Of a stretch of 32,000 nt of DNA, positions 2,284 through 21,044 are shown in pieces (position 1 is the stretch's first letter; each line of letters starts with the position of its first letter). The stretch lies in NCBI GenBank assembly GCA_047651235.1, contig CP178758.1, forward strand, positions 1,260,001 to 1,292,000, in the 5' to 3' direction. Position numbers and translations under genes: made by a program. The notes beneath the pieces were generated by a model that did no database searches, had not been told where the DNA came from, and worked only from the letters and a program-made list of their open reading frames with translations. The stretch comes from Candidatus Electrothrix yaqonensis (GTDB lineage Bacteria > Desulfobacterota > Desulfobulbia > Desulfobulbales > Desulfobulbaceae).

Positions 2284-2526
2284 GAAGACCTCCGGAGACC
2301 GGGTGCTGAAGTTAATGTGCCGACAGCCGGTTATCCTGCCCGGCATACTCCCGCCAGCAGAAGAGAAGTTCCTGTTCCGCAAAAAAAACTTTCTCTTTTG
2401 CCCGCAGAATGGTAACCATCTGTCGTTTTCTGAAGTTGTTCTGGATAAACCGAACTTCTTATATATTCTTATTATCCTTGTCAAGTCAAGTCTTATGGAC
2501 CGAGCTGACAGGGACGGCAGGGAATC

Positions 2527-5407: not shown

Positions 5408-6319
5408 TCAATGCCTCCTGTGCTGCCGGTTGAGCCGTCTGAATAGCACGATCAGGCTGCGCTTGAGCAGGTTGACGCTATGGTAGACATGATCCAGCTC
5501 GTCATCGGATTCAGAGGGATTGATATAGACAAGTTCGGTATCCAGCCTGCCTGCGGCAATGGCTTCCACACCGGCGGTGAGCCGTATCAGGCGGAAAGCA
5601 AGGAAGTGGACAAAGAGAAAGTTCACTGCAAAAATCAGCACAAGAAAGATGGCAGTCCAGGGGGTCAGCAGCGCGCGTAAGACCTCCTTGATTCCTGTGA
5701 CCGGCAGGGTGACGCTGATGATACCCCGCACCTGTCCCACCTTGTAGCCGAAGGCTTTTTCAGTTCCGTATTTCTCCAGCACTTCCGGGGGGGCGTCCTT
5801 GGGATCACCGTGACATTTCAGGCACTCCTGCCGCACCAGAAGCGGACGGGCATAGCGGTATGTTCCGTTTTCATACCGTTCGGCAAAGTCGAGTTTTCCG
5901 TCCTGTTTGAAAGCCTTGATGGCGCTTGCCTCAAAATCATCCGGTGCATTGCCTTGGTACCGGTAGTCGTCACTGGTGACCCGGAAGGTTGCACGGCTGG
6001 CCTCTTTCCGGGCGAGCACGGACAGCTCTCTGGTGGCCAAGGCCGGATTTTTGCCGTAAAAGGTACTGCCGTGCGCAGAGGAGTTCTGGACAAGAAAATC
6101 TTCATATCCCGGAACCAGTTTCCGGACCCAGACCATACCGCTCTGGGCAACCCAGGAGCGGAAGGCAACAATCTGGTCTGCCACGGCTCCTGCTTCCTGT
6201 CGGGCCGCATACATCCGTAGTTGATACAGACCGGTCATGAACGCTCCGGCTGTCAGCAGCAGGCTCAGCAGGAATACACAGAGAAACTTCAGGTAGATAC
6301 TCAGATTTCTTCCAATCAT
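5408..6319 (-). CDS. Membrane sensor protein with a DUF3365 (c-type heme, CxxCH) periplasmic domain and a HAMP domain, and no output domain, 303 aa
   Basis: N-terminal TM helix, then a periplasmic domain carrying ECLKCHGDPKDAPPEVLEKYG (CxxCH heme-c motif typical of DUF3365/Tll0287-like sensors). A second TM helix and a HAMP-like segment (RLIRLTAGVEAIAAGRLDTEL...) follow, and the protein ends there. Confidence 0.75.
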   Translation of the reverse strand: MIGRNLSIYLKFLCVFLLSLLLTAGAFMTGLYQLRMYAARQEAGAVADQIVAFRSWVAQSGMVWVRKLVPGYEDFLVQNSSAHGSTFYGKNPALATRELSVLARKEASRATFRVTSDDYRYQGNAPDDFEASAIKAFKQDGKLDFAERYENGTYRYARPLLVRQECLKCHGDPKDAPPEVLEKYGTEKAFGYKVGQVRGIISVTLPVTGIKEVLRALLTPWTAIFLVLIFAVNFLFVHFLAFRLIRLTAGVEAIAAGRLDTELVYINPSESDDELDHVYHSVNLLKRSLIVLFRRLNRQHRRH

Positions 6320-9982: not shown

Positions 9983-12055
9983 TTATGCTGCTGTTTTTTC
10001 GGATTTGCACTCTACAGAGTCTGCAGATTCCGCAGATGGCAGGGTGATGATAATCCGGGCACCTTGTCCTGCCTCTCCTTCAATATTGACGGTACTCCTC
10101 ATGGAGGTGAGCATCTTTTTCACAATGGTGAGCCCCAGTCCCGTGCCTTTGGCCCGGGTCGTAAAAAATGGTTTAAAGAGCTCCTCTTTGACATGGCCAG
10201 GAAAGCCGCAGCCGTTATCCTGAAAGACGATCTGGACGAACTGGTTATTCTTTCGCGTAAGATACATAGTGATGAGCGGCTTTGCCGCGTCACGGAGCGC
10301 ATTCACCGCGTTGGTGACAAGATTCAGCAGGACCTGATGCAGGGCCCGTTCATCAACCAGAGAGCAGGCTGCATCATTGATCTGCAGTTTCATGGCAATA
10401 CCTTTGCGCTGCAGATCCTTTTCGTGCATTCGTTGAAAATTTGCAAGAAAAGCGGCAAGGTCTGTCAGGGTGAGTACCTGTTCTTCATGCACATTGAAAT
10501 TTTTCAGGGAATAGAGCAGATATTCCATCCGTTTGATTTCCCGCATGGAACGGTCAAGAAACTCCCTGATTCTTTCCGGAGAGAGATGATCCAGCTGCCT
10601 GAGCAGAACACTGATGGCCATTTTCAGCGAGTTCAGGGGATTGCCCAGTTCATGCCGGATGCCTGAAAAAACAAAGCCCACATTGTCCATCAGATTGGCA
10701 GCTTCTGCAATGGATTCAAGGCGTTTCTGGTCGGTCCGGTCATGCTTGATGATACAGAAGCTGTTGACTTTGTTTTTTTCGCCCCGGACCGGAATAATTG
10801 CGACAGACTCATCATAGACAGAACCGTCCTTATGCCGGTTCCGCAGTTCCCCGCGCCATTCTCTGCCTTCAGCCACAGAATCCAGCACCTGCCGGCAGTT
10901 GAACCTGCCCTGTTCGTCCGATTGTATCCGGCCGAATTTCATTCCGATCAGTTCTTCCGGAAGATAACCGGTCACCTTTGTGCTGGCCGGATTGGCGTAA
11001 AAAATGGTTCCTGTTTTATCGGTCATCAGCACACAGTCGGCAAACTCACTGATCGCTGCGGCCAGCCGGACACGCTCCCGCGATTCGAAGGTTCTCCGGA
11101 CAGCGGTGCCGATGATCTCCGAGGACGTTGTCATGGCCTGCACAAGGGGCTCATCCCAAGACCGTTCTTCCTGGCTGCAGTCGAATCCTATGCACCCCCA
11201 CAGCTGCTTGTACACGTAGATCGGCAGAATCAGACAGGTCCGGATGTTGTTCTGTTCAAACTCCTCCCGGAGAAAGACCGGCAGGCTGCGGTCCGGTCCG
11301 ATAATCGGGCCTGCAGTCAGCAGCCGGATGGGAGGACGCCACATGGCCAGCACATCAATACTGGAACTGGTGATGGTATTTCCGTATTTATACCAAGTAT
11401 AATGCCGCTGTTCGGAAGTTCGCGGCTCAAAAGTTTTCAGGTAGACGTGCTCGCTGTCCACATTCTCTCCCAGATACTGCAGCACATCTTTGATTATTTT
11501 TTCCCAGTTTTCTGTCTGCAGAAATGTTTTTGCCACATAATTGACTGCGCTGAGGATATGATCCCGCTGCAGCAGATTGCAGCCGATCTGCTTCTGGACA
11601 GCCAGGGATTCCTGCAGAAGCGCATTGGTTCCCTCCAGATCAAGGGCCTGCTGTTCAAGTTTTTCCCTGGCCGCCTTGATTTCCAGGGTATTGCGCACTC
11701 TGGCGCAGAGCTGCGCCCTGTTCACCGGTTTGCGGAGAAAATCAACAGCTCCTTCCTCAAACCCTCTGTATTCGTTTTCCTCCGCCCCTGTGGCGGTGAG
11801 AAAAATAATCGGTATCTTCCGTGTGCGTTCCTGTGACGTCAGTTTTCTGCACACCTCAAACCCGATGATATCCGGCAGGTTGATGTCCAGCAGGATCAGG
11901 TCCGGAATTTCTTCCTCCGCCAGCCGCAGCCCATCCTTGCCGTTTTCCGCATTCAGAACCCTGTACTTCTCATATTCCAGAATATGACGCAGGATGGAGA
12001 GCACCAGGATATCATCATCAATCAGAAGTATTTTGGCAGATTCAAAGGATCTCAT
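9983..12055 (-). CDS. Hybrid sensor histidine kinase with REC - coiled coil - GAF-like - PAS - HisKA - HATPase_c architecture, 690 aa
   Basis: The N-terminal receiver has KILLIDDD...DLILLDINLPD...KP. The H-box is FSGIRHELGNPLNSL. The ATPase N, G1 and G2 boxes are LLNLVTNAVNA, DNGCGF and GTGLGL. The central region resembles GAF plus PAS (FADCVLMTDKTGTIFYANPASTKVTGY). Confidence 0.9.
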   Translation of the reverse strand: MRSFESAKILLIDDDILVLSILRHILEYEKYRVLNAENGKDGLRLAEEEIPDLILLDINLPDIIGFEVCRKLTSQERTRKIPIIFLTATGAEENEYRGFEEGAVDFLRKPVNRAQLCARVRNTLEIKAAREKLEQQALDLEGTNALLQESLAVQKQIGCNLLQRDHILSAVNYVAKTFLQTENWEKIIKDVLQYLGENVDSEHVYLKTFEPRTSEQRHYTWYKYGNTITSSSIDVLAMWRPPIRLLTAGPIIGPDRSLPVFLREEFEQNNIRTCLILPIYVYKQLWGCIGFDCSQEERSWDEPLVQAMTTSSEIIGTAVRRTFESRERVRLAAAISEFADCVLMTDKTGTIFYANPASTKVTGYLPEELIGMKFGRIQSDEQGRFNCRQVLDSVAEGREWRGELRNRHKDGSVYDESVAIIPVRGEKNKVNSFCIIKHDRTDQKRLESIAEAANLMDNVGFVFSGIRHELGNPLNSLKMAISVLLRQLDHLSPERIREFLDRSMREIKRMEYLLYSLKNFNVHEEQVLTLTDLAAFLANFQRMHEKDLQRKGIAMKLQINDAACSLVDERALHQVLLNLVTNAVNALRDAAKPLITMYLTRKNNQFVQIVFQDNGCGFPGHVKEELFKPFFTTRAKGTGLGLTIVKKMLTSMRSTVNIEGEAGQGARIIITLPSAESADSVECKSEKTAA

Positions 12056-12550
12056 AGACGGTACGTGACATTATCTGCAAAAATCATCTGCAGGACGTGA
12101 ACCGGAGATGCAGCCGGAAATCCAACCGAAAATGCCCCTGCTAATATTCCTGCGGTGTGATGCTGTACAAAACATGACTGGTTGCTGCGGCTGCGTCGGT
12201 AAAGCCGGTTCGGGTACTGTCCGGAACAACGTCCGGTCGGAATGACAGGTACTTTTTTTGTTTCTTTCAGACACTGTTATTGCTAACATGGAATATCAGG
12301 AGAGACAAGATTATTCGTTCCGCCTGCCCGTAAAAAGAGACGTGGAAGAGACACCGGACAGCCCCGGATACAAAAAGGGGCAGGACAGGTCCGGATACCG
12401 CCGGGCGGGCCGGTTGCTTACCACTGTGTATTATGCCCACCGTGTGCCGCGTTATGCACGGCTGTGTACAAGGGTGTAACAACGGTCGGCTGCCGCACCA
12501 CAATCGGGATACTGCAGGAAAGGAAAAGGAGAAAGAATAGAAAGAATTAT

Positions 12551-13384
12551 ATGAAACAGGTAATTATTGTCGATGACGAGCCGGAACTGCTTCTGAGCAT
12601 ACAGGCCGGACTGGAAAAAAACAACGGTTGTTTTCAGATCATGACAGCGGAAAACGGCCGGGAAGCCCTTGATCTGCTGGAAAACAACGTTGTTGATCTG
12701 GTGGTGACCGACCTGCGGATGCCGGAAATGGACGGTGTGGAACTGCTTGCCGCCATGAGCGAATCCTTTCCCGAAGTTCCCAGCATCGTGATGACAGCCT
12801 TCGGCACCTCCTCTATGGAACGGCTGCTGAAAAAAACAGGAACATTGAATTTTCTTGAAAAACCGCTTGATATTGACAGTCTTGAGCAGGCTGTCACCAA
12901 TGCGCTGGATTTTTATCATAACCGGGAGGGCGGTCTGGAGCTAGATATTTTTTTGCAGCTTGTGGCTATGGAACGAAAAACTGTGCATCTCAAGGTGGTT
13001 GATCCCGACAGGCGGCAGGGCAGCTTTTTTTTCCGTAAGGGCTTTCTGATTGATGCGGAGCAGGATGACCGGATCGGTGATGAAGCGGTGCTGGCAATGC
13101 TGGAATGGAAACATGTGCAATTGAGCATGAAGGAGTTTATTCCTCCTGTTGTTCCGGAAGCTCCCGAAGTTCCGAAAGCCCGTCCGCATACAGAGACCCG
13201 TTCCGAACAGCTGCTCCTGCGTTCCGGTATGCCGTACTGCCGGGAGCGGCAGAAAGCCTGCAATCCGTTATATGATGAAGTCAGGCAGGAGTTTATTCAG
13301 GCAGGAGTTTATGCGTCTGAAAAAAAATATGAGCTGTCAGCCCGGAACAGCAGGACGGCATACAGAATCGAATCTGATCCATGA
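12551..13384 (+). CDS. Response regulator with receiver + DUF4388 (PATAN-like) domains and no Roadblock domain, 277 aa (paralog 1)
   Basis: REC motifs are IVDDEPE, VVTDLRMPEMDG (Asp54) and VMTAF..EKP. A DUF4388-like segment follows: LELDIFLQLVAMERKTVHLKVVDPDRRQGSFFFRKGFLIDAEQDDRIGDEAVLAMLEWKHVQLSM. I chose the start MKQVIIVDD at 12551 by alignment with the two paralogs; the ORF track begins at 12464. Confidence 0.8.
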   Translation: MKQVIIVDDEPELLLSIQAGLEKNNGCFQIMTAENGREALDLLENNVVDLVVTDLRMPEMDGVELLAAMSESFPEVPSIVMTAFGTSSMERLLKKTGTLNFLEKPLDIDSLEQAVTNALDFYHNREGGLELDIFLQLVAMERKTVHLKVVDPDRRQGSFFFRKGFLIDAEQDDRIGDEAVLAMLEWKHVQLSMKEFIPPVVPEAPEVPKARPHTETRSEQLLLRSGMPYCRERQKACNPLYDEVRQEFIQAGVYASEKKYELSARNSRTAYRIESDP

Positions 13385-14568
13385 AACGGCAGGTATTAAT
13401 AGTTGATGATGAACCGGAGCTGCTTCTGAGCATCAGGTCCGGTTTTGAAGACAATGATCGTTTTGAGATCATGACGGCGCATAATGGCCTGGAAGCACTT
13501 GATGTAATGAGAAGAAACTCTGTTGACCTGCTGGTGACCGATCTGCGGATGCCGAAAATGGACGGCGTGGAGTTGCTTGCCGCCATGACGGAATCCTTTC
13601 CCAGGGTACCGAATATCGTGATGACAGCCTTCGGAACCCCTGTGATGGAACGGCAGCTGAAAAAAGCTGGCACATTGGAGATGCTTGAAAAACCGCTGGA
13701 TATTGATGCGCTTGAGCAGGCGATCAACAGAGTACTGGATGCGTATGACGAACAGCACAGCGGGCTTTCCGGAATCTCTCTGGACAACTTTCTCCAGATT
13801 CTTGCTCTGGAGCAGAAGACAGCGACGGTCAAGGTTGTTCATCCGGGCGGGAAAAAGGGCAGCCTGTTTTTTTCTGACGGCAAGTTGATTGATGCGAGGT
13901 GTGATCACAGCCTCGGAGAAGAGGCATTTTTTGAAATGCTGTCCTGGGAACATGTCCGACTGAGTATGGACAAGTTGCCGTCGCCTCCGCCAAAAACCAG
14001 AATTCACGCTGAACTGATGTCGCTTCTGCTGAAATCCGCGCACCGGAAGGATACGCGCCAGGAGGCCAAACCGCTGAATCTGGTCAAGCAGGAGCTGCGT
14101 ACTCAGCACCGTATCCAGCAGAAAAAACAGCAGCAGGGGAAGAAGAACAGACAACACAGAAACTATAACAATCACAACAGGAAAACCGTACCAGGAGGGG
14201 AGAGAAAAATGGCAGGAATCAAAGAAGTGCTGAAAGAAATGGCAGGGGAAATGGACGGAGTGCTTGCAGTGCAGGTGACCGGTATGGATGGTATCACGAT
14301 TGCGCTGCATAATCCCACCGGCACGGATGTGGAGGCATTTTCGGCAAAGTTTGCTATGGTCATGAAACTCGTTGAAAAATCTGTCAGCTCGCTGCAGGGA
14401 ATGGGCAGCTTTGAAGAAAATCTGGTGCAGGCGCAGAACGCCTGGATCCTGACCCGGTTCGTCACGCCGCAGTACTATGTGGGCATTGCGGTCAGCCGGG
14501 ATGGTACCTTGGGTAATGTACGCCTGGTTGCCCAACGTTATATTGACCGCCTGCGCAAACTTTTGTAA
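13381..14568 (+). CDS. Response regulator with receiver + DUF4388 (PATAN-like) + Lys/Gln-rich linker + Roadblock/LC7 (MglB-like) domain, 395 aa (paralog 2)
   Basis: The start overlaps the paralog 1 stop (ATGA at 13381-13384). REC motifs are conserved, including Asp54. DUF4388-like segment: ISLDNFLQILALEQKTATVKVVHPGGKKGSLFFSDGKLIDA...EAFFEMLSWEHVRLSM. The C-terminal 119 aa, MAGIKEVLKEMAGEMDGVLAVQVTGMDGITIALHN...YYVGIAVSRDGTLGNVRL, fit the Roadblock/LC7 pattern. Confidence 0.85.
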   Translation: MKRQVLIVDDEPELLLSIRSGFEDNDRFEIMTAHNGLEALDVMRRNSVDLLVTDLRMPKMDGVELLAAMTESFPRVPNIVMTAFGTPVMERQLKKAGTLEMLEKPLDIDALEQAINRVLDAYDEQHSGLSGISLDNFLQILALEQKTATVKVVHPGGKKGSLFFSDGKLIDARCDHSLGEEAFFEMLSWEHVRLSMDKLPSPPPKTRIHAELMSLLLKSAHRKDTRQEAKPLNLVKQELRTQHRIQQKKQQQGKKNRQHRNYNNHNRKTVPGGERKMAGIKEVLKEMAGEMDGVLAVQVTGMDGITIALHNPTGTDVEAFSAKFAMVMKLVEKSVSSLQGMGSFEENLVQAQNAWILTRFVTPQYYVGIAVSRDGTLGNVRLVAQRYIDRLRKLL

Positions 14569-14600
14569 TTATAAACGGATCAAAACGCAGGAGGATAAAT

Positions 14601-15077
14601 ATGGCTTCAGAAGAGCAGAAAAAGAAAAATCTGATGCGCCTGATGAATCTGATGATCGCAGGTATGGCCAAAGCATTATATGACCTGTTCGGCGACACCG
14701 CCTTTGCCACGATGAGTGAGGTCGGCAGAACAACGCTGGAAATCATGGAACAGGAAATGGGCCTTGAAGTGGAAGGAGAAGATCCGAAAGATGTTCTCAT
14801 GGAAATCGGCCGTATTTTTGCCGATGAGATGGGATTTATAGAATCCTTCAGCACCGAGCAGGAGGGCAATAACCTCTCGCTTATCGTCCATCATTGTCAG
14901 GGCTGGAACCTGACGCAGTCTATTCTGAAGACAGGGATCGAAATTCCGTTCACCTGCCCGATCATGAATGTCTGTCAGGCGGCTCTGATCCGGATGGGGA
15001 AACCGGCACAGAAATCCATTTCGCCTCTTCCGGAAACACATGGCTCCACCATCACTTTTACGCTGATTGAACAGTAG
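14601..15077 (+). CDS. Hypothetical 158-aa protein, possibly a V4R-like (4-vinyl-reductase-type) small-molecule-binding protein
   Basis: Strong SD (AGGAGGataaatATG). The architecture is a helical N-half (AKALYDLFGDTAFATMSEVGRTT...) followed by a Cys-bearing C-half (LIVHHCQGW...FTCPIMNVCQAAL...TITFTLIE). This resembles V4R/COG1719-type proteins as I remember them. The functional call is tentative (about 0.4); the confidence given is for the CDS itself. Confidence 0.65.
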   Translation: MASEEQKKKNLMRLMNLMIAGMAKALYDLFGDTAFATMSEVGRTTLEIMEQEMGLEVEGEDPKDVLMEIGRIFADEMGFIESFSTEQEGNNLSLIVHHCQGWNLTQSILKTGIEIPFTCPIMNVCQAALIRMGKPAQKSISPLPETHGSTITFTLIEQ

Positions 15078-15204
15078 GAACAGCAGGGTGCAGAAAGCGG
15101 AGCAGCCGTGCCCTCGATCTTTCCCGTCGGCGGACGGCTGCCCGGATTTCGGTCCGGTACGTAAATCAGATGGAACGCCAGATGGAATACCATCGGAGTA
15201 ACCT

Positions 15205-16413
15205 ATGAAACAGCAGGTACTGATAGTTGATGATGATCCGGAACTGCTCCTGAGTATCAGCTGCGGTTTTGAACAGAATGAACGCTTCCACCTTCTCAAG
15301 GCAGAAAACGGTCGGGAAGCCCTTGCTGTTCTGGAGACCAACAGGGTGGATCTTGTAGTCACCGACCTGAATATGCCGGTCATGGACGGGGTGGAACTCC
15401 TTTCCGTGATGAGCAATTCGTTTTCGGAAGTCCCGTACGTTGTGATGACAGCGTTCCGGACTTCCGTGATGGAGGAACATCTGAAACAGGCCGGTGCTCT
15501 GAATCTCCTTGAAAAGCCCATTGATATTAATCAGCTTGAAGAGGCGATCAACAAGGCGCTGGATATCCAGGAGGAGCAGAACTGCAGTCTTGCCGGTCTG
15601 CCGCTGAGCAGTTTTCTTCAGCTTGTTGCTATGGAGCAGAAAACTGCGCATCTGAAGATTTTCCATCTGGGCGGACAATGCGGCAGTCTTTTTTTTCATG
15701 ACGGGGACCTCATTGATGCGGAATACGATGATCTGATCGGTGATGAAGCTGTGCTGGAGATGCTGGCATGGGAAAATGTCAGGGTGAGTATAAAAGAGTT
15801 TACCGGGCCTTTTTCCAATTCCAGGATGAAATCCGAGCTCCTGTCCCTTATTTTTACAGCTCTGCAGCGCCAGGACTGGAATGCGGAAGATGCTGATAAT
15901 CCGCTGCAGGTGGTAAAAGAGGAATTTGACCGGATGAAAAAAACAGCATCCGAGAAGCTTATATGCAGGCGGACAAATACAACAAATACAGCTAGGCCAA
16001 AACCGGACAGGAAGACAGAGACAAAAAAAGATAGAAACAAGGCAGGGACAAAAAAGGAAAAAATCAACGATGTACTCAAAAAGATGGCAGCTGAACTGGA
16101 CGGATTGCTTGCGGTGCAGGTAACGGGTCTGGACGGGGTAACCCTGGCCCTGCATAATCCGGCCGGTGCGGACATGGAGGTCTTTTCCGAAAAGTTCTCT
16201 ACTATAATGCAGCTTATCGGAAAATCCGTCGGTTCTCTGCGGGAGATGGGGGAATTTGAAGAAAGTCTGATTCAGGCCCGGAACGCCTGGATACTGACCA
16301 GATTTATCACGCCGCAGTACTATGTGGGCATTGCGGTCAACCGGGAAAGCACTCCCGGTAATGTGCGCCTAGTCGCCCGGAGTTATCTTGACCGGCTGCG
16401 TCGCTCGCTGTAA
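15205..16413 (+). CDS. Response regulator with receiver + DUF4388 (PATAN-like) + Lys-rich linker + Roadblock/LC7 domain, 402 aa (paralog 3)
   Basis: Same architecture as 13381..14568, with IVDDDPE, VVTDLNMPVMDG, VMTAF and EKP. DUF4388-like segment: LPLSSFLQLVAMEQKTAHLKIFHLGGQCGSLFFHDGDLIDA. Roadblock-like C-terminus: MAAELDGLLAVQVTGLDGVTLALHN...YYVGIAVNRESTPGNVRL. SD GGAG lies 8 nt upstream. Confidence 0.85.
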   Translation: MKQQVLIVDDDPELLLSISCGFEQNERFHLLKAENGREALAVLETNRVDLVVTDLNMPVMDGVELLSVMSNSFSEVPYVVMTAFRTSVMEEHLKQAGALNLLEKPIDINQLEEAINKALDIQEEQNCSLAGLPLSSFLQLVAMEQKTAHLKIFHLGGQCGSLFFHDGDLIDAEYDDLIGDEAVLEMLAWENVRVSIKEFTGPFSNSRMKSELLSLIFTALQRQDWNAEDADNPLQVVKEEFDRMKKTASEKLICRRTNTTNTARPKPDRKTETKKDRNKAGTKKEKINDVLKKMAAELDGLLAVQVTGLDGVTLALHNPAGADMEVFSEKFSTIMQLIGKSVGSLREMGEFEESLIQARNAWILTRFITPQYYVGIAVNRESTPGNVRLVARSYLDRLRRSL

Positions 16414-16455
16414 CTGTACAATTCTTCGTAGACGATCAGCCGGAAATGTTTGTTC

Positions 16456-17748
16456 ATGGTCACCTTCCGTCCCGCCTTTCTCACCCGTCCGGACAGCCTG
16501 ACTGTACCTGAGGCCCGCTATTTTCAGGATCTTCTCTATCGGACCGTAAAAATCGGCACGGAGCTGGAATTCGCCCTGCCCAAAGGCGTACTGCGTGAAG
16601 ACCTGCAGCCCCGTGTTGAACAGGCCCTGCAGCCTTCCAGGGATATGAACCGGCTGGGGGCCTTGGGGGTCTATGATGTGATCAAGGAGCACTGCGGAGT
16701 CGAAGTGCTGGTGATCGGCCGGCATCCTCATTGGGATGCCCTCCTGCAGCAGTATCAAGGGATTATTCGCGTCCTGCTGGCTGAAAAAGTCAGAATGCGC
16801 CCGACCTGCGGCCTGCATTTTCATATTCTCGGCACAGGACTTGCAGAAGAGATTCCGGAAATCATCTTGGCAAACCTGTGGAACATGGCCCGCATTTTTG
16901 CTCCGGGACTCAAATTTATCACATCAGGCGGGAAAAGCAAGCAGGGGTTGTGCCGCCGGCGCCAGCATAATGCGCATCAGGAATTCATGCGTCTGTCGCC
17001 GGAAGAGCATTCCATGCAGGCAATTCAGGCTCTGCTGAAAAAAAGCATGGATGTTCCCGAACACCAGAATTTTTTTAATATAGCACATGTCTGCTTTAAT
17101 GCGGCTGGCAAGATACGGAATTTCCACCTTGAGTTCCGTTTTCCGGATGGCGACCTCTGCCCGGTCTCGATTACGGCCAAAACGTTTTTATTTTTGATCA
17201 TGCTGCTCAAAGCGGTGGAAATCTCTAAATTCGGGTTGCTTAGGGCTGGCGACACCGGTTCTCTGATGAAAAGAAACAGAGAACTCATGGACATGATAAG
17301 TAATAATGACGGCAAGTTGGCCACTAGCGACACCGGTGCTATTGATGACCTGCTTCTGCGGGAATATCAGGAAAATGCCCAAGCCCTGCTAATTTTTCTT
17401 AAGTCCGTTCTTCTGCTCCTCGACAGTCCTGCCGAACTGGTGCTGCAGGAGCTGGCAATGCAGCCGGTTTCCCTGCGCAGAAGCCGGGGACAGAGCTGGC
17501 AGCAGATTGAGAAGAACCTGCTCGCTCATATCAGCCCCCGGCCTGTTCCGGACGAGACAGACTATGAGCTGATAAAAATCATTGAACTCGGCCTGCTGGT
17601 GCATATCGACAGTAAAAAAAGCTGGCTTGCCGGAGCTGCTGATATGCTCGGTCTTGCGCCGGAAGAGGTGTACGCCCGGGTGCAGTGCTTTCATGACCGC
17701 TCGCCTGTCTGGCAACAGGAACTGGGCAGCATTGTCTTTCTGCGTTAG
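16456..17748 (+). CDS. Putative amidoligase (glutamine-synthetase/GCS2-like fold, 'Amidoligase_2'-type) with an uncharacterised C-terminal region of about 170 aa, about 430 aa
   Basis: Three motifs match my recollection of the amidoligase family: an N-terminal G-x-E-x-E strand (KIGTELEFALP), CGLHFHIL, and NFHLEFRFPDGDL (the E-F-R motif). The ORF track start at 16450 is TTG and the first ATG is at 16456. No clear SD; the gene lies 42 nt after the preceding gene. Confidence 0.65.
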   Translation: MVTFRPAFLTRPDSLTVPEARYFQDLLYRTVKIGTELEFALPKGVLREDLQPRVEQALQPSRDMNRLGALGVYDVIKEHCGVEVLVIGRHPHWDALLQQYQGIIRVLLAEKVRMRPTCGLHFHILGTGLAEEIPEIILANLWNMARIFAPGLKFITSGGKSKQGLCRRRQHNAHQEFMRLSPEEHSMQAIQALLKKSMDVPEHQNFFNIAHVCFNAAGKIRNFHLEFRFPDGDLCPVSITAKTFLFLIMLLKAVEISKFGLLRAGDTGSLMKRNRELMDMISNNDGKLATSDTGAIDDLLLREYQENAQALLIFLKSVLLLLDSPAELVLQELAMQPVSLRRSRGQSWQQIEKNLLAHISPRPVPDETDYELIKIIELGLLVHIDSKKSWLAGAADMLGLAPEEVYARVQCFHDRSPVWQQELGSIVFLR

Positions 17749-17816
17749 CCAAGCACGATATTTGCATACAAAGCAGGGATTGCGGAATTCTACAGACAAG
17801 AAAACAAGGAATCATC

Positions 17817-18596
17817 ATGTGCGGCATCAGCGGCGTACTGATCAGCCCCGGACGCAGCACAGCACAGCTTTTCCGCATCAGCGAACTGTTTATGGCCAAT
17901 CTTATCGCCAATGAACAGAGGGGAAAGGAGGCCACAGGCGTTGCCCTGCTCAACCGGGATTCCAGCTGGCTGCTGGACAAGGCGCCGCAGACGGCAAGCC
18001 GGTATATCCGTTCAGCAGGATACCGCCGGGTCATGCAATCCCTGTCTGCGGAGACAACCGTGCTGCTGGGCCACACCAGAGAGCCGACCAAGGGAACGCC
18101 GCAGATCAACGCGAACAACCATCCGATCGTCCGGGGCAGCATTATCGGGGTGCATAACGGAACAATTACCAATGATGACGAGATTTTTGCCCAGCAAACC
18201 AACAGCGCTGACCGGATCGGTTCGGTGGACAGCGAAGCTGTTTTTGCCCTGCTTGACAGCATTGCGGATGCAATGGCGCTGCCCTCCTACGGCAGAAAAC
18301 TCTATGAGCAGTCCGGCAAGATCATCGGCTCATATGCGGTTCTTTATGTAAATCCTACTTTGCCGTACTGTGTTTTTCTGTTAAAGTATAAGAATCCTGT
18401 TTCAGTCCACTGGGATAATGAACTGGGCGCCCTGTTTTTTTCCTCGCGTTATCTGTTCCTGCGCAAGACCTTCGGACGTGCCGCAATCACGGACGGGCTG
18501 CCGGGAAGAACCGGTTTTATGTTCGACGCTGCCCGGCTTCAGCAGAATGGAGCTCTGCCGGCGCGCCGGTTCCGCCTGTTCAGCAATGAATCGTAA
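17817..18596 (+). CDS. Stand-alone class II (Ntn-type) glutamine amidotransferase, YafJ-like, 259 aa
   Basis: N-terminal MCGI supplies the nucleophilic Cys2 after Met removal. Other motifs are GHTREPTKG...NNHPI, VHNGTITN and VDSEAVFAL, the canonical class-II GATase set. SD aAGGAatcatcATG. Confidence 0.85.
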   Translation: MCGISGVLISPGRSTAQLFRISELFMANLIANEQRGKEATGVALLNRDSSWLLDKAPQTASRYIRSAGYRRVMQSLSAETTVLLGHTREPTKGTPQINANNHPIVRGSIIGVHNGTITNDDEIFAQQTNSADRIGSVDSEAVFALLDSIADAMALPSYGRKLYEQSGKIIGSYAVLYVNPTLPYCVFLLKYKNPVSVHWDNELGALFFSSRYLFLRKTFGRAAITDGLPGRTGFMFDAARLQQNGALPARRFRLFSNES

Positions 18597-18672
18597 TCAG
18601 GGATAGTTCACGGTTAATCGCGCCAAAATGATCCTGCAGTCCTTTAACAGGAATTTTCTGCTATAATGAAAG

Positions 18673-19308
18673 ATGAAAGAAACAATACCGGCAAAAACTG
18701 ACAGGCCTGAACTGTCTGTGATACCATATGAGAACGCAATGAATATCCGACAGAAATTATCCCGACTTGCGGAAATCGACGGCTTTGCAGGAGCAGCTCT
18801 GTTCACCCCGGACGGACGCCTGCTTGTGAAATGTGAACCTGTTGATATCAATATCGAACTTCTCGGCTCTCTTGCCAATAATGTCCTGCGTACTGCTGAA
18901 AAGGTCTCGCGCGATATGAGCTGCGGCCGCAGCCACTTCACCTTCATGCATACGGAAAAGGTACTGATTCTACTCCGTTGCCTTAATGAGGGCAAAAATC
19001 CTCTGCGGGCTGAACCGGGAAGATGCCATATCCACCTTATTCTTTTTATTGATAATCCGGAAAGCCTCGGTATCGCCAAAATCGAGATCAGCAAGGTTAT
19101 TGAATCGCTGGCTGCAAATTTCAGAGCACCGGCAAAAGGCAGCAGGCAGCAGAAAAAAAAAGCCCCTGCGTCGCAGAAGACGGCAGACCGGACAGAGAAC
19201 CGGGCGGAAAAACTCCCGGAACAACAGGGGAAGAAGCCTCTGAATGATGTGGCATGCCTCCTGAATAACGAACAGGTAAACAGAGCGTTTGATAGTTTAC
19301 TTGCCTGA
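18673..19308 (+). CDS. Roadblock/LC7 (MglB-like) domain protein with a basic Lys/Gln-rich C-terminal tail, 211 aa (possible alternative start at M23, 18739)
   Basis: LSRLAEIDGFAGAALFTPDGRLLVKCEPVDINIELLGSLANNVLRTAEKVSRDM...VLILLRC fits the Roadblock pattern (x-G-phi-x-G-A-x-phi-x-x-DG). The tail reads APAKGSRQQKKKAPASQKTADRTENRAEKLPEQQGKK. Confidence 0.7.
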   Translation: MKETIPAKTDRPELSVIPYENAMNIRQKLSRLAEIDGFAGAALFTPDGRLLVKCEPVDINIELLGSLANNVLRTAEKVSRDMSCGRSHFTFMHTEKVLILLRCLNEGKNPLRAEPGRCHIHLILFIDNPESLGIAKIEISKVIESLAANFRAPAKGSRQQKKKAPASQKTADRTENRAEKLPEQQGKKPLNDVACLLNNEQVNRAFDSLLA

Positions 19309-19343
19309 TCGTTACTGTCTGACTTTTTCTCAAAGAGGATCAT

Positions 19344-19709
19344 ATGGCCAAAAAAAACTGCTGGGAAGTCAAAAAATGTGGTCGGCAGCCGGGTGGTCAT
19401 AAGGTCAGAGAACAAGGTATCTGCCCTGCTTCCACGATTATAGCGGTTGACGGCATCAATCACGGCAAAAACGGCGGGCGGGCCTGCTGGGCTCTGACCG
19501 GCACCATGTCCGGTCCGGCGGAAAAAGTCCAGGGCACGTTTGCCCGCCTCCTGCCCGGCAGCTGCTATGACTGCAAATTTTATGAACTGGTAATGATGGA
19601 AGAAGGGGAGAATTTTGAAGGAACTGTCCGGATCGTCCAGAAACTGAGAGAGGTTATTGATGCCGTTACAACCACTGCTCCATCAAAACCCCCATCCCGG
19701 TCAGGTTGA
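19344..19709 (+). CDS. Cys-rich 'two-CW' type small protein, 121 aa
   Basis: SD AAGAGGAtcatATG. MAKKNCWEVKKCGRQPGG...GICPA...GKNGGRACWALTGT...CYDCKFY carries two C-W dipeptides plus a CxxC, six Cys in total. It matches my recollection of proteins that NCBI annotates as two-CW domain-containing. It is the last gene of the plus-strand cluster. Confidence 0.65.
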   Translation: MAKKNCWEVKKCGRQPGGHKVREQGICPASTIIAVDGINHGKNGGRACWALTGTMSGPAEKVQGTFARLLPGSCYDCKFYELVMMEEGENFEGTVRIVQKLREVIDAVTTTAPSKPPSRSG

Positions 19710-20696: not shown

Positions 20697-21044
20697 TTAG
20701 TAGCCATAGCCATAGCCTCTGTATTCATACCGATCATCATCGGAGTAACGCCCGCTATTAGCGCCGCGATATTCGTAGCGGCTACCGCGCTCGTATCCGG
20801 TGCCGCGATACGCATACCGATCATCATCGGAGTAACGCCCTCCATAAGCGTTTCCGCGATACGCAGAACGATTATCGGAGTAACGTCCTCCATAAGCACC
20901 GCGATATTCGTAGCGGCTGCCGCGGTCGTAGTATCCACTGCCGCGCTCGTATCTGCTGCCGTATCCGCTGCCGTGGGCAGTTGCGAAGAGTCCCAGTACG
21001 AGGAATGAACTGATCAGGGTGAGGGCTGTTGTTGTCTTTTTCAT
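20697..21044 (-). CDS. Secreted low-complexity Arg/Gly/Tyr/Ser/Asp repeat protein, 115 aa
   Basis: GGAGG SD. The signal peptide is MKKTTTALTLISSFLVLGLFATAHG. The mature part is almost entirely R, Y, G, S and D (…GGRYSDNRSAYRGNAYGGRYSDDDRYAYRG…RYSDDDRYEYRGYGYGY). A 28-nt perfect DNA repeat occurs at 20726-20753 and 20813-20840. Confidence 0.7.
   Translation of the reverse strand: MKKTTTALTLISSFLVLGLFATAHGSGYGSRYERGSGYYDRGSRYEYRGAYGGRYSDNRSAYRGNAYGGRYSDDDRYAYRGTGYERGSRYEYRGANSGRYSDDDRYEYRGYGYGY

What the first reader, a model, noticed from the sequence alone, without database searches (positions are those of the whole stretch)
12551..19709. Eight-gene REC / DUF4388(PATAN-like) / Roadblock signalling cluster joined to an amidoligase + class-II amidotransferase pair, with no GTPase
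Eight same-strand genes are packed tightly. One pair overlaps by 4 nt (ATGA), and the other gaps are 32, 127, 42, 68, 76 and 35 nt. In order they encode:
- REC-DUF4388
- REC-DUF4388-Roadblock
- a possible V4R-like protein
- REC-DUF4388-Roadblock
- a GS-fold amidoligase
- an Ntn-type glutamine amidotransferase
- a stand-alone Roadblock protein
- a Cys-rich two-CW protein

Roadblock/LC7 (MglB-type) proteins are known as regulators or platforms for small Ras-like GTPases. PATAN/DUF4388, REC, Roadblock and V4R are known to co-occur in motility and development loci. As I recall it, this comes from comparative-genomics work by Koonin, Aravind, Makarova and Galperin.

Two things are unusual here. First, no MglA-like GTPase gene lies in or next to the cluster; the only P-loop GTPase in the window is the unrelated EF-G paralog 10 kb away. 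Second, the signalling genes appear to be co-operonic with an amidoligase + GAT-II pair, a combination otherwise predicted to make gamma-glutamyl-type amide metabolites or peptide-tag modifications.

A phosphorylation-controlled Roadblock module wired to an amide-bond-forming enzyme pair is not a system I know to be described. It could be a signalling pathway whose output or input is a covalent protein modification or a small amide ligand sensed by the V4R-like or two-CW proteins.
Basis: partly seen in the sequence, partly recalled or inferred. Interest (0 to 1): 0.85.

Follow-up and report, generated by a model that had tools for sequence, protein, structure and literature searches.

The report
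Conserved Roadblock–ligase signalling gene module
This cable-bacterium gene cluster is one copy of an apparently undescribed module, found in at least a dozen bacterial phyla, that joins regulator proteins of small Ras-like GTPases to an amide-bond-forming enzyme and a glutamine-type amidohydrolase; this suggests that cell-polarity or motility signalling is controlled by a chemical modification or a small ligand.

Summary
Eight + strand genes lie at 12551-19709, with exactly the overlap and gaps reported. The window comes from Candidatus Electrothrix sp. YB6.

Domain calls:
- REC, DUF4388/PATAN, class-II GATase and two-CW pass curated thresholds.
- Roadblock is confirmed only with a family profile (MglC, E 1e-12).
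- The "V4R-like" protein (g3) and the "amidoligase" (g5) have no match in the local Pfam copy. Good AlphaFold models place them in the V4R/Bet3(TRAPPC3) fold and the glutamine-synthetase/YbdK/PafA-Dop fold.

The adjacency is not fortuitous. Among 74 loci holding a g5 homolog, from about 12 phyla:
- g3 lies just upstream in 69 of 71;
- PATAN or Roadblock lies upstream in 66 of 67;
- the GATase lies downstream in 55 of 66.

"No GTPase" is true here but local. Thirty related loci, mostly Chloroflexota, carry a genuine MglA.

Best reading: a phosphorylation-controlled Roadblock/PATAN/Bet3-like platform that regulates a GTPase, whose state is set by a gamma-glutamyl-type amide written by g5 and removed by g6. 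The module is solid; the chemistry is inferred. I found no published description.

The parts
9983..12055 (-). Divergently transcribed hybrid histidine kinase (REC-GAF-PAS-HisKA-HATPase_c). It is the likely phosphodonor for g1, g2 and g4.
   Evidence: Pfam hits. A minus-strand REC/kinase gene sits at the same position upstream in Electrothrix and Desulfobulbaceae loci L003-L007 and L011-L013. Phosphotransfer to g1/g2/g4 is inferred.
12056..12550 (.). 495-nt divergent intergenic region, the presumed promoter region for the eight-gene unit.
   Evidence: Sequence. This is the only long non-coding stretch bordering the cluster. The promoter scan gave no convincing + strand site here, so this is inferred.
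12551..13384 (+). g1: response regulator, REC + PATAN/DUF4388, without a Roadblock domain.
   Evidence: Response_reg 90.3 bits and DUF4388 26.8 bits. The DD, D53, T81 and K103 receiver residues can be read directly in the translation. It is 55% identical to g2 and g4.
13381..14568 (+). g2: REC + PATAN/DUF4388 + a basic low-complexity linker + a C-terminal MglC-like Roadblock domain.
   Evidence: Response_reg 87.7 bits, DUF4388 52 bits, Robl_LC7 13.9 bits. The Roadblock profile A3, which includes this domain, matches MglC 7ct3 at E 1.2e-12.
14601..15077 (+). g3: 158-aa V4R/Bet3(TRAPPC3)-fold protein of Pfam PF27323, with invariant Cys99 and a PFTCP motif (Cys119). It is the tightest partner of g5.
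   Evidence: No hit in the local Pfam copy. PF27323 is precomputed for its homologs and is labelled RdxA_C. The AF2 model has pLDDT 84.8. Foldseek matches: Bet3 1wc8 E 9e-6, PoxR V4R 5fru E 3e-4, Thorarchaeota TRAPPC3 7yh3, and H-NOX. Invariant residues are listed. It lies upstream of g5 in 69 of 71 loci.
15205..16413 (+). g4: second REC + PATAN + Roadblock protein, a paralog of g2 inserted between g3 and g5.
   Evidence: It is 56% identical to g2. The same insertion is seen only in L007, L067 and L080.
16456..17748 (+). g5: 430-aa carboxylate-amine ligase of the glutamine-synthetase fold, a divergent relative of Amidoligase_2, with a C-terminal all-helical domain.
   Evidence: No Pfam, NCBIfam or PDB sequence hit. 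The AF2 model has pLDDT 86.8. Foldseek matches GS 5dm3, YbdK 1r8g/1tt4, Dop 7oyh, PafA 4bjr and GmaS 9qur, and phage "Amidoligase enzyme" models. There is a transitive link to Pfam Amidoligase_2 through P0370. Invariant motifs are TELE, EHCGxE, TCGLHFH, CRRRQHN and HxExRxPDxD.
17817..18596 (+). g6: stand-alone class-II (Ntn) glutamine amidotransferase or gamma-glutamyl amidohydrolase.
   Evidence: GATase_6 39.7 bits. Cys2, R35-G36, H86-x-R88-xx-T91-x-G93, N114-G115 and D138 are each kept in at least 94% of 50 homologs. It lies downstream of g5 in 55 of 66 loci.
18673..19308 (+). g7: N-terminal Roadblock domain plus a charged low-complexity tail that ends in a conserved AFDxLL motif.
   Evidence: Robl_LC7 20.7 bits, below the cut-off. 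PDB Roadblock 7yh1 at E 0.009. The family aligns to the Roadblock profile with hhalign probability 93%. It is present in L001-L003, L005, L067, L087 and L088. A plain stand-alone Roadblock gene follows g6 in many other Thermodesulfobacteriota loci.
19344..19709 (+). g8: small Cys-rich two-CW domain protein, always paired with g7. A lineage-specific addition.
   Evidence: NCBIfam NF045718 at 92.3 bits, cut-off 35. It follows g7 in L001, L002, L003, L005 and L067, and in L087 and L088, where g5 and g6 are missing.

Best explanation
The eight genes are an Electrothrix-elaborated copy of a widely conserved chromosomal module. Its core is a PATAN-Roadblock protein, a V4R/Bet3-fold protein (g3), a glutamine-synthetase-fold ligase (g5) and, usually, a class-II amidohydrolase (g6).

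Shown: the module is a conserved functional unit. In Chloroflexota it is embedded in an operon with MglA, further Roadblock proteins, receiver domains and histidine kinases.

Inferred mechanism:
1. The Roadblock, PATAN and Bet3-like proteins form a platform that regulates a small MglA-type GTPase, in the way MglB/MglC, Ragulator or TRAPP do. This would control polarity or motility.
2. In Electrothrix the receiver domains fused to g1, g2 and g4 put the platform under phosphorylation control by the divergently encoded hybrid kinase.
3. g5 uses ATP to activate a glutamate gamma-carboxylate, as every characterised GS/GCS/PafA-fold ligase does, and joins it to an amine. The amine is either a small molecule held in the g3 cavity or a residue on g3 or a Roadblock partner.
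4. g6 keeps all residues that grip the alpha-amino and alpha-carboxyl groups of a glutamyl moiety, and it hydrolyses that gamma-glutamyl amide again.

Together, g5 and g6 would write and erase the switch state of g3.
For: Module:
- 74 loci holding a g5 homolog come from Thermodesulfobacteriota, Chloroflexota, Acidobacteriota, WOR-3, KSB1, Calditrichota, Bacteroidota, Chloroherpetonaceae, Fibrobacterota, Coatesbacteria, Pseudomonadota and other groups.
- g3 is upstream of g5 in 69 of 71 loci, PATAN or Roadblock is upstream in 66 of 67, and g6 is downstream in 55 of 66, always on the same strand and in the same order.
- In several Desulfobacterales loci the g6 match starts within 3 nt of the end of g5.
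- Searching from g3 instead finds g5 downstream in 12 of 15 loci.
- The proteins are strongly conserved. g5 is 44-75% identical across phyla with 63% mean column identity, and g3 has 65% mean column identity.

GTPase link:
- MglA (E 1e-56 to 3t12) is present in 30 loci. In L034 it lies 6-12 nt from its flanking Roadblock genes, inside the operon.
- The module's Roadblock domain is most similar to MglC.
- The c7 and c8 proteins that flank MglA are Roadblock-like.

g3: Bet3/TRAPPC3, V4R and H-NOX fold. Members of this fold hold ligands in an internal cavity, according to PMC10933270.

g5: GS, YbdK, Dop, PafA and GmaS fold and phage amidoligases. The acidic, His and Arg motifs are invariant.

g6: the complete class-II glutamine-site signature is conserved in 50 of 50 homologs. 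It also gives a weak NCBIfam match to the gamma-glutamyl hydrolase EgtC.

Against: - No biochemical or transcript data exist.
- The substrate of g5 is unknown. GS-fold enzymes can also be hydrolases (Dop).
- No GTPase lies in this window, and I could not show that Electrothrix YB6 encodes one. No Electrothrix name appears among the top 120 MglA hits.
- g6 is missing from 11 of 66 loci. It appears split in E. laxa (L003) and was not detected in E. gigas (L005).
- g5 and g6 are missing downstream of g3 in L085, L087 and L088. The signalling core can therefore work without the enzymes.
- g3 has only two invariant cysteines, not the four-ligand Zn site of Thorarchaeota TRAPPC3 and PoxR, and no V4R Pfam hit.
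- Fold matches have modest TM-scores (0.3-0.59).
- The loci were retrieved with two g5 peptide patterns, so only the close family was sampled.
Confidence: 0.45

Rival explanations
1. Glutamine-dependent amidotransferase complex. g6 is the glutaminase subunit that hands ammonia to g5, and g5 amidates a carboxylate on a small molecule or protein. The amidated product is the ligand or mark read by g3.
For: g6 has the full glutamine-binding and Cys1 catalytic signature. Its best NCBIfam hits are GlmS and PurF N-terminal domains. g5 and g6 abut within a few nt in many loci. GAT-II fused to an amidoligase exists in Mycobacterium phage Tesla.
Against: To my knowledge, no characterised GS-fold ligase receives channelled ammonia from a GATase. 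g6 is absent from 17% of loci while g5 is kept, so it is not an obligate subunit. Known GS-like/GATase-like pairs (PuuA/PuuD, EgtA/EgtC, AtdA1/AtdA2) work as ligase plus hydrolase (own knowledge).
Confidence: 0.2
2. Pup-like protein tagging. g5 is a PafA/Dop-type enzyme that ligates the C-terminal or side-chain glutamate of one module protein to a lysine of another, and g6 deamidates or removes the tag.
For: Dop (7oyh, 9cku) and PafA (4bjr) are among the Foldseek hits at E 3e-4 to 3e-3. g5 is almost always paired with a small protein, g3.
Against: GS and YbdK score as well or better than Dop and PafA. By inspection of the alignment, g3 C-termini are not conserved and carry no GGQ/GGE-type tail. 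No small disordered Pup-like ORF was noticed in the module, although I did not search for one.
Confidence: 0.1
3. Metabolic-status sensor. g5 and g6 are used mainly as binders of glutamate, glutamine and ATP. They report nitrogen or energy status to the Roadblock/PATAN platform, and no signalling product matters.
For: Both enzymes belong to families centred on glutamate and glutamine. Other sensors are inserted into the module in some loci: protoglobin in L028 and L065, and PAS/GAF kinases.
Against: All catalytic residues are invariant across phyla in both proteins, which argues for retained catalysis.
Confidence: 0.1
4. Fortuitous or purely regulatory adjacency. g5 and g6 are an ordinary metabolic pair that merely sits next to, or is transcriptionally regulated by, two-component genes.
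For: Two-component genes are common neighbours of many operons. The enzyme pair is missing from a few g3-containing loci.
Against: The same order and strand recur in about 12 phyla. The PATAN-Roadblock regulators lack DNA-binding domains. g3 has no metabolic signature, yet it is the tightest neighbour of g5.
Confidence: 0.03
5. Anti-phage defence or conflict system carried on a mobile element.
For: Amidoligase/GAT-II pairs are frequent in phages. Weak PADLOC hits to PDC-M60B/C were found.
Against: The PADLOC hits cover only the receiver domain. g5 has no tblastn match in 72,556 plasmids or 50,697 phages. No toxin or nuclease effector is present. Flanking genes are housekeeping (RlmL, MurJ, EF-G).
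Confidence: 0.02

Closest known systems
MglA / MglB / MglC / RomR front-rear polarity module of Myxococcus xanthus (and Thermus MglA-MglB)
   Same: Roadblock-domain proteins act with a receiver-domain protein on a small Ras-like GTPase. The module's Roadblock profile is closest to MglC (7ct3, E 1.2e-12). Genuine MglA is inside the homologous Chloroflexota operons.
   Different: Here there is no GTPase in the locus. Roadblock is fused to REC and PATAN. A Bet3/V4R-fold protein, a GS-fold ligase and a GAT-II enzyme are added. None of these is part of the Myxococcus module (own knowledge; titles of PMC9481161, PMC7949163 and PMC10329633).
PatA-type PATAN (DUF4388) response regulators (Makarova et al. 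2006, Bioinformatics; recalled, not held in the library)
   Same: PATAN is combined with REC and Roadblock domains in regulators of gliding, phototaxis and development. The Pfam DUF4388 hits exceed the cut-off.
   Different: The domain order is REC-PATAN-Roadblock (PatA has PATAN-HTH-REC). As far as I could find, the obligate link to g3 and g5 was not described.
Eukaryotic and Asgard TRAPP (Bet3-family plus longin subunits) and Ragulator (Roadblock heterodimers): GEF or scaffold platforms for Rab and Rag GTPases
   Same: The same building blocks occur in one operon: a Bet3/TRAPPC3-fold protein, several Roadblock domains and a small GTPase. PMC10933270 notes that V4R/TRAPPC3 cavities bind ligands and that Roadblock/longin dimers act on GTPases.
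   Different: This is a bacterial, cytoplasmic two-component context. No complex has been shown. The enzymes g5 and g6 have no counterpart in TRAPP or Ragulator. That paper also found that Asgard GTPase genes are generally not in operons with Roadblock or TRAPPC3 genes, whereas here they are.
Streptomyces conservon (CvnA kinase-like sensor, CvnB Roadblock, CvnC, CvnD GTPase; Komatsu et al. 2006, recalled)
   Same: An operon combining a histidine-kinase-type sensor, a Roadblock protein and an MglA-like GTPase. CvnB5 (3leq) is hit by the Roadblock profile. Some conservons carry an extra enzyme (a P450).
   Different: The conservon has no PATAN, no Bet3/V4R-fold protein, and no ligase or amidohydrolase.
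Amidoligase_2 (PF12224) + GAT-II pairs of phages and bacteria (Iyer, Abhiman, Burroughs and Aravind 2009, Mol Biosyst; cited, not readable here)
   Same: A GS-fold COOH-NH2 ligase is paired with a class-II amidotransferase. The g5 model matches many phage "Amidoligase enzyme" models and a GAT-fused one. A distant g5 relative hits PF12224 at E 4.5e-4.
   Different: g5 and 13 close homologs give no PF12224 hit. The family is chromosomal and absent from the phage and plasmid collections. It carries a roughly 190-aa helical C-terminal domain, and it is tied to signalling proteins rather than to DNA or metabolite modification genes.
Gamma-glutamylation / de-glutamylation enzyme pairs (PuuA/PuuD, GmaS, EgtA/EgtC, AtdA1/AtdA2) and PafA/Dop
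   Same: A GS-fold ligase makes a gamma-glutamyl amide, and a GATase-type or GS-fold hydrolase cleaves it. GmaS, naphthylamine-GS, Dop and PafA are among the fold hits, and EgtC is a weak NCBIfam hit for g6.
   Different: Those are catabolic, biosynthetic or proteasome-tagging pathways with an intervening step or a Pup tag. Here no oxidase, Pup or proteasome gene is present, and the neighbours are signalling proteins.

Membership tests
Response regulator receiver (REC) | Pfam Response_reg above the gathering score, with the acidic pair, phospho-acceptor Asp, Thr and Lys present | tested here: met
   87-90 bits against a cut-off of 30.2 for g1, g2 and g4. DD, VVTDL, MTAF and EKP can be read in the translations.
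PATAN / DUF4388 | Pfam PF14332 above the gathering score (25 bits) | tested here: met
   g1 26.8, g2 52.0 and g4 39.0 bits. The Chloroflexota ortholog L034 8271-9008 scores 84 bits.
Roadblock/LC7 (MglB/MglC type) | Single-sequence Pfam Robl_LC7 above the gathering score (23 bits) | tested here: not met
   g2 13.9, g4 15.2 and g7 20.7 bits.
Roadblock/LC7 (MglB/MglC type) | Family-profile similarity to solved Roadblock proteins | tested here: met
   Profile A3 matches MglC 7ct3 at E 1.2e-12, and 7f8m, 9jue, Rv3364c, CvnB5 and 7yh1. 12 of 14 members hit Robl_LC7, best E 2e-9. The g7 family aligns to A3 with hhalign probability 93%.
Roadblock/LC7 (MglB/MglC type) | GAP or GEF activity on, or binding to, an MglA-type GTPase | not testable with these tools
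   Only co-location with MglA in 30 of 74 related loci.
V4R / Bet3 (TRAPPC3) fold | Sequence match to Pfam V4R (PF02830) | tested here: not met
   No V4R hit at E <= 0.1. Homologs carry PF27323, labelled RdxA_C.
V4R / Bet3 (TRAPPC3) fold | Two-layer alpha/beta fold of Bet3 and V4R sensor domains | tested here: met
   Model pLDDT 84.8. Matches Bet3 1wc8 at E 8.9e-6 (TM 0.54), yeast TRAPP 3cue (TM 0.59), PoxR 5fru at E 3e-4 (TM 0.56) and Thorarchaeota TRAPPC3 7yh3.
V4R / Bet3 (TRAPPC3) fold | Cys-based Zn site tethering the sheet to helix D, or a ligand cavity | tested here: inconclusive
   Only Cys99 and Cys119 (PFTCP) are invariant. Position 114 is acidic in most members, and Cys126 is seen only in the Electrothrix-like and closest sequences of the alignment. 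The site is described in PMC10933270. Model coordinates could not be inspected.
Amidoligase_2 / GS-fold carboxylate-amine ligases | Pfam PF12224 (or Gln-synt_C / GCS2) sequence match | tested here: not met
   None of 14 family members hits any such model even at E 10. Only the distant relative P0370 (E 4.5e-54 to the g5 profile) hits PF12224, at 20.6 bits against a cut-off of 22.
Amidoligase_2 / GS-fold carboxylate-amine ligases | GS/GCS catalytic fold | tested here: met
   Model pLDDT 86.8. The top 50 PDB hits are all GS, YbdK, GmaS, Dop, PafA or amine-GS. There are 21 BFVD hits at E <= 1e-3, and all but one of those carrying a name are called amidoligase.
Amidoligase_2 / GS-fold carboxylate-amine ligases | Metal- and ATP-binding acidic, His and Arg motifs retained | tested here: inconclusive
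   E36, E38, E78, E83, H121, H123, E226 and R228 are invariant in 14 sequences. They were assigned to GS catalytic positions by motif analogy only; no residue-level superposition was available.
Class-II (Ntn) glutamine amidotransferase | Pfam GATase_6 above the cut-off; N-terminal Cys nucleophile; Arg, Asn-Gly and Asp glutamine-site residues | tested here: met
   39.7 bits against a cut-off of 27. Cys2 is present in 50 of 50 homologs. R88, N114-G115 and D138 are conserved at 100%.
two-CW domain | NCBIfam NF045718 above the cut-off (35 bits) | tested here: met
   92.3 bits over residues 4-84 of g8.
MglA-centred polarity module | An MglA-type GTPase encoded in the locus | tested here: not met
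   The best tblastn hit of MglA in the window has E 0.17. The feature is met in 30 related loci.
Pupylation-like tagging (PafA/Dop) | A small tag protein with a conserved C-terminal Gln/Glu, and a proteasome or target context | tested here: inconclusive
   By inspection of the alignment, g3 C-termini are variable. No Pup-like ORF or proteasome gene was noticed in the surveyed loci, but I did not search for one systematically.

The most novel reading that the evidence does not exclude
Bacteria from more than a dozen phyla possess a TRAPP- or Ragulator-like assembly made of a Bet3-fold subunit and multiple Roadblock domains. This assembly regulates an MglA-type small GTPase. It is switched by a previously unknown reversible covalent mark or ligand: a gamma-glutamyl-type amide installed by a dedicated GS-fold ligase and erased by an Ntn amidohydrolase. 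In cable bacteria this switch is additionally gated by phosphorylation of fused receiver domains.
Probability: 0.2. Interest if true: 0.9.

Novelty: new variant of a known kind. Interest (0 to 1): 0.72.

Why it matters
**A new kind of control for small GTPases.** Roadblock proteins and small GTPases set cell polarity and motility in bacteria. They are also the prokaryotic relatives of the eukaryotic Rag/Ragulator and Rab/TRAPP machineries. A widely conserved operon puts a Bet3-fold protein, several Roadblock domains and MglA together with a dedicated ligase/amidohydrolase pair. That points to a layer of control not described for any of these systems: an enzyme-made amide ligand or modification.

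**A testable handle on two unstudied families.** g3 (PF27323) and g5 (no Pfam family) are highly conserved, at 45-50% identity between Chloroflexota and Thermodesulfobacteriota, yet I found no published study of either.

**A link to eukaryotic origins.** The operon gives a bacterial context in which Bet3/V4R, Roadblock and a GTPase are linked, which bears on the origin of TRAPP-like GEFs.

**Cable bacteria.** The locus is a candidate regulator of gliding or filament behaviour. Its content varies between lineages: g4 is duplicated, g6 is split or undetected in two Electrothrix species, and g5/g6 are missing in an Electronema-like locus.

Tried and rejected
**Sequence and database searches that found nothing**
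- Pfam-A, NCBIfam and PADLOC scans of g3 and g5, and PDB sequence or profile searches of g5, gave no hit.
- tblastn of g5 against the plasmid and phage collections gave no match. The mobile-element or defence reading was therefore set aside.

**Ideas tested and dropped**
- g3-g5 fusion proteins. The 520-600-aa g5 relatives looked like candidates, but they carry a Cys-rich insertion after the first ExE strand rather than a g3 domain.
- MglA in Electrothrix. The last homolog search, seeded with the L015 MglA, returned Desulfobulbaceae and Thermodesulfobacteriota MglA but no Electrothrix-named entry among the top 120. This is inconclusive.
- A Pup-like tail on g3. None was seen in the alignment.

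**Literature**
- These term combinations found no paper on this module: amidoligase + Roadblock; DUF4388 + Roadblock; PATAN + V4R; cable bacteria + MglA; two-CW; PF27323; and RdxA with Roadblock, V4R, MglA or TRAPP.
- Iyer et al. 2009 (PMC3268129) is not held.
- The Klebsiella CfmP paper concerns an ATP-grasp enzyme and is irrelevant.
- Podar 2008 does not discuss gene context.
- The meaning of the Pfam label RdxA_C for PF27323 remains unresolved.

Full report
**Source and observation**

The window comes from Candidatus Electrothrix sp. YB6, a cable bacterium: the g5 protein is 100% identical to NCBI locus ACL93V_05910. Eight ORFs lie head to tail on the + strand at exactly the coordinates given. 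The g1/g2 overlap is 4 nt (ATGA), and the other gaps are 32, 127, 42, 68, 76 and 35 nt. None of the terminator-like matches on the + strand falls between genes. A REC-GAF-PAS-HisKA-HATPase hybrid kinase is transcribed divergently from 12055, across a 495-nt spacer. The other flanking genes are housekeeping or unrelated: RlmL, MurJ, an EF-G paralog and an OMP.

**Domain checks**

- REC and DUF4388/PATAN pass Pfam gathering scores in g1, g2 and g4.
- GATase_6 passes in g6.
- The NCBIfam two-CW model passes in g8.
- Roadblock is sub-threshold in single sequences (13.9, 15.2 and 20.7 bits against a cut-off of 23).
- A profile of 14 orthologous Roadblock domains (A3) matches M. xanthus MglC (7ct3) at E 1.2e-12, along with other solved Roadblock proteins. 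Twelve of the 14 members hit Robl_LC7.
- The g7 family aligns to that profile with 93% hhalign probability. g3, used as a negative control, scores 2%.

**g3**

g3 has no hit in the local Pfam copy. Its homologs carry the new family PF27323, which is labelled RdxA_C; I could not find what that name refers to. An AlphaFold2 model (pLDDT 84.8) matches these structures:

- Bet3/TRAPPC3 (1wc8, E 8.9e-6; TM up to 0.59);
- Thorarchaeota TRAPPC3 (7yh3);
- the V4R sensor domains of PoxR and MopR;
- H-NOX.

This is the same set of structural relatives that PMC10933270 reports for archaeal TRAPPC3, and that paper concludes such proteins bind ligands in an internal cavity. g3 keeps two invariant cysteines, C99 and the PFTCP motif. 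That is fewer than the four-ligand Zn site described there.

**g5**

g5 has no Pfam, NCBIfam or PDB sequence match, alone or as a profile. Its model (pLDDT 86.8) matches only carboxylate-amine ligases of the GS fold: glutamine synthetases, YbdK/GCS2, gamma-glutamylmethylamide synthetase, naphthylamine-GS, Dop and PafA. In the viral library it matches phage "Amidoligase enzyme" models, including a GAT-fused one.

An exhaustive profile search found only 260 clusters (at 50% identity) among 1.84 billion proteins. One distant member links weakly to Pfam Amidoligase_2, at 20.6 bits against a cut-off of 22.

The invariant motifs are TELE, EHCGxE, TCGLHFH, CRRRQHN and HxExRxPDxD. They are consistent with an active metal- and ATP-dependent ligase, but this rests on motif analogy only.

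**g6**

All 50 homologs of g6 keep Cys2. The R35-G36, H-x-R88-x-x-T-x-G, N114-G115 and D138 positions are each kept in at least 94% of them. This is the complete site that grips the alpha-amino and alpha-carboxyl groups of a glutamyl moiety and cleaves its gamma-amide.

**Neighbourhood survey**

A scan of one genome per GTDB species returned 74 loci encoding g5 relatives that are 44-75% identical to g5. Their labels include:

- Thermodesulfobacteriota;
- Chloroflexota, the largest group;
- Acidobacteriota;
- WOR-3;
- KSB1;
- Caldithrix;
- Coatesbacteria;
- Cytophagia;
- Chloroherpetonaceae;
- Fibrobacterota;
- Pseudomonadota;
- a cyanobacterium.

Thiorhodovibrio frisius, a cultured gammaproteobacterium, carries Robl-g3-g5-g6 too.

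A phmmer survey with the window's proteins gave these counts:

| Feature relative to g5 | Loci with feature / loci with enough flank |
|---|---|
| g3 immediately upstream | 69 of 71 |
| PATAN or Roadblock upstream | 66 of 67 |
| g6 downstream | 55 of 66 |

The two g3 exceptions are a truncated contig (L067) and a solitary cyanobacterial gene (L032). In all cases the genes are on the same strand and in the same order.

The reverse search, starting from g3 in metagenomes, found g5 downstream in 12 of 15 loci with enough flank. The three exceptions are:

- an Electronema-like locus that ends after g3;
- two loci in which g7-g8 follow g3 directly.

g5 has no match in the plasmid or phage collections. 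The adjacency is therefore a conserved chromosomal module and not a chance arrangement.

**The GTPase question**

Clustering all ORFs of the loci revealed a 197-aa protein in 30 loci. It matches Thermus MglA at E 1e-56 and Myxococcus MglA at E 2e-51.

In Chloroflexota the operon reads: HisKA protein, REC-wHTH, REC-Roadblock, Roadblock (c8), MglA, Roadblock (c7), PATAN-Roadblock, Roadblock (c5), g3, g5, g6, REC, giant PAS kinase. The gaps are 6-73 nt.

In one deltaproteobacterial locus (L015), Robl-Robl-MglA follows g6. In two other Desulfobulbaceae MAGs, MglA lies in a separate Robl-MglA operon.

The window itself has no MglA. Whether YB6 has one elsewhere could not be determined. "No GTPase" is therefore a local feature, and the system as a whole is tied to MglA-type GTPases.

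**Lineage-specific parts**

- REC is fused to PATAN-Roadblock in the examined Thermodesulfobacteriota, Acidobacteriota and WOR-3 loci, but it is a separate protein in the examined Chloroflexota loci.
- g1 and g4 are Electrothrix paralogs of g2, about 55% identical.
- g4 sits between g3 and g5 only here and in L007, L067 and L080.
- g7 and g8 occur only in Electrothrix loci and in two unnamed metagenome contigs.
- g6 appears split in E. laxa and was not detected in E. gigas.

**Mechanism**

Shown: this is a conserved multi-protein unit that joins Roadblock/PATAN/Bet3-fold proteins, and often MglA, to a GS-fold ligase and a class-II amidohydrolase.

Inferred:

1. The non-enzymatic proteins form a platform that regulates a GTPase, under two-component control.
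2. Every characterised GS/GCS/PafA-fold ligase activates a glutamate gamma-carboxylate (established knowledge). g6 is built to bind a glutamyl moiety.
3. The pair therefore most plausibly makes and removes a gamma-glutamyl amide, either on a small amine held by g3 or on a protein side chain.

I put about 0.9 on the module being a functional unit and about 0.3 on this particular chemistry. The overall figure is 0.45.

The rival explanations are a glutamine-dependent amidation complex, Pup-like tagging, a pure metabolic-sensor role, fortuitous adjacency, and defence. They are weighed in the Rival explanations section.

**Novelty**

The parts are all known kinds: MglA/MglB/MglC modules, PATAN response regulators, conservons, TRAPP/Ragulator architecture, and amidoligase/GAT-II pairs. 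The obligate combination is not described in any paper I could search. The key 2009 amidoligase survey could not be read, so prior mention there cannot be excluded. I rate the module as a new variant of a known kind.

Noticed in passing
window 20697-21044 (-): A 115-aa ORF with a clear signal peptide followed by Gly/Tyr/Arg-rich repeats (RYEYRG, GGRYSDDDRY). It has a 48-nt tandem repeat at the DNA level and no Pfam hit.
   Followed up: partly
window 229-2895 (-): An EF-G paralog of 888 aa. Its GTP_EFTU domain starts at residue 209, so it carries an N-terminal extension of about 200 aa of unknown nature.
   Followed up: no
window 22502-24976 (+): An 824-aa protein with an N-terminal signal-like segment and no Pfam match at all.
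   Followed up: no
L028 8355-8891; L065 9383-9934: A protoglobin gene (PF11563, 113 bits for L028) is inserted inside the module: upstream of g3 in L028, and between g3 and g5 in L065. This hints at gas or redox input in some lineages.
   Followed up: partly
L030 1743-2360; L027 5372-5995; L074 2862-3497: A hexapeptide-repeat (LbH, gamma-carbonic-anhydrase-like) protein of about 210 aa sits between g3 and g5 in Cytophagia, Coatesbacteria and WOR-3 loci.
   Followed up: partly
L003 11320-12097; L005; L085 6001-6474: Within cable bacteria the enzyme pair looks unstable. g6 appears split into two ORFs in E. laxa, and no g6 was detected in E. gigas. An Electronema-like locus keeps REC-PATAN, REC-PATAN-Robl and g3 but has neither g5 nor g6 downstream.
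   Followed up: partly
P0360, P0366, P0370, P0372 (distant g5 relatives): A subfamily of 520-600 aa carries a long Cys-rich insertion right after the first ExE strand of the ligase fold. Its gene context was not examined.
   Followed up: no
L077 7557-11307; L078 7494-9927; L015 11978-16094: In Desulfobulbaceae-type loci MglA follows a Roadblock gene and precedes a large protein with no Pfam hit (435-714 aa). In L077 and L015 a further protein of about 280 aa, also without a Pfam hit, follows.
   Followed up: no
g3 family (P0121-P0220); L075 9367-9837: The precomputed Pfam family for g3, PF27323, is labelled RdxA_C. I could not find what RdxA refers to or any paper using the accession.
   Followed up: partly
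window 5408-6319 (-): A Tll0287-like domain protein with a HAMP domain (303 aa) lies a few kb upstream. It is a sensor-type protein not obviously linked to the module.
   Followed up: no
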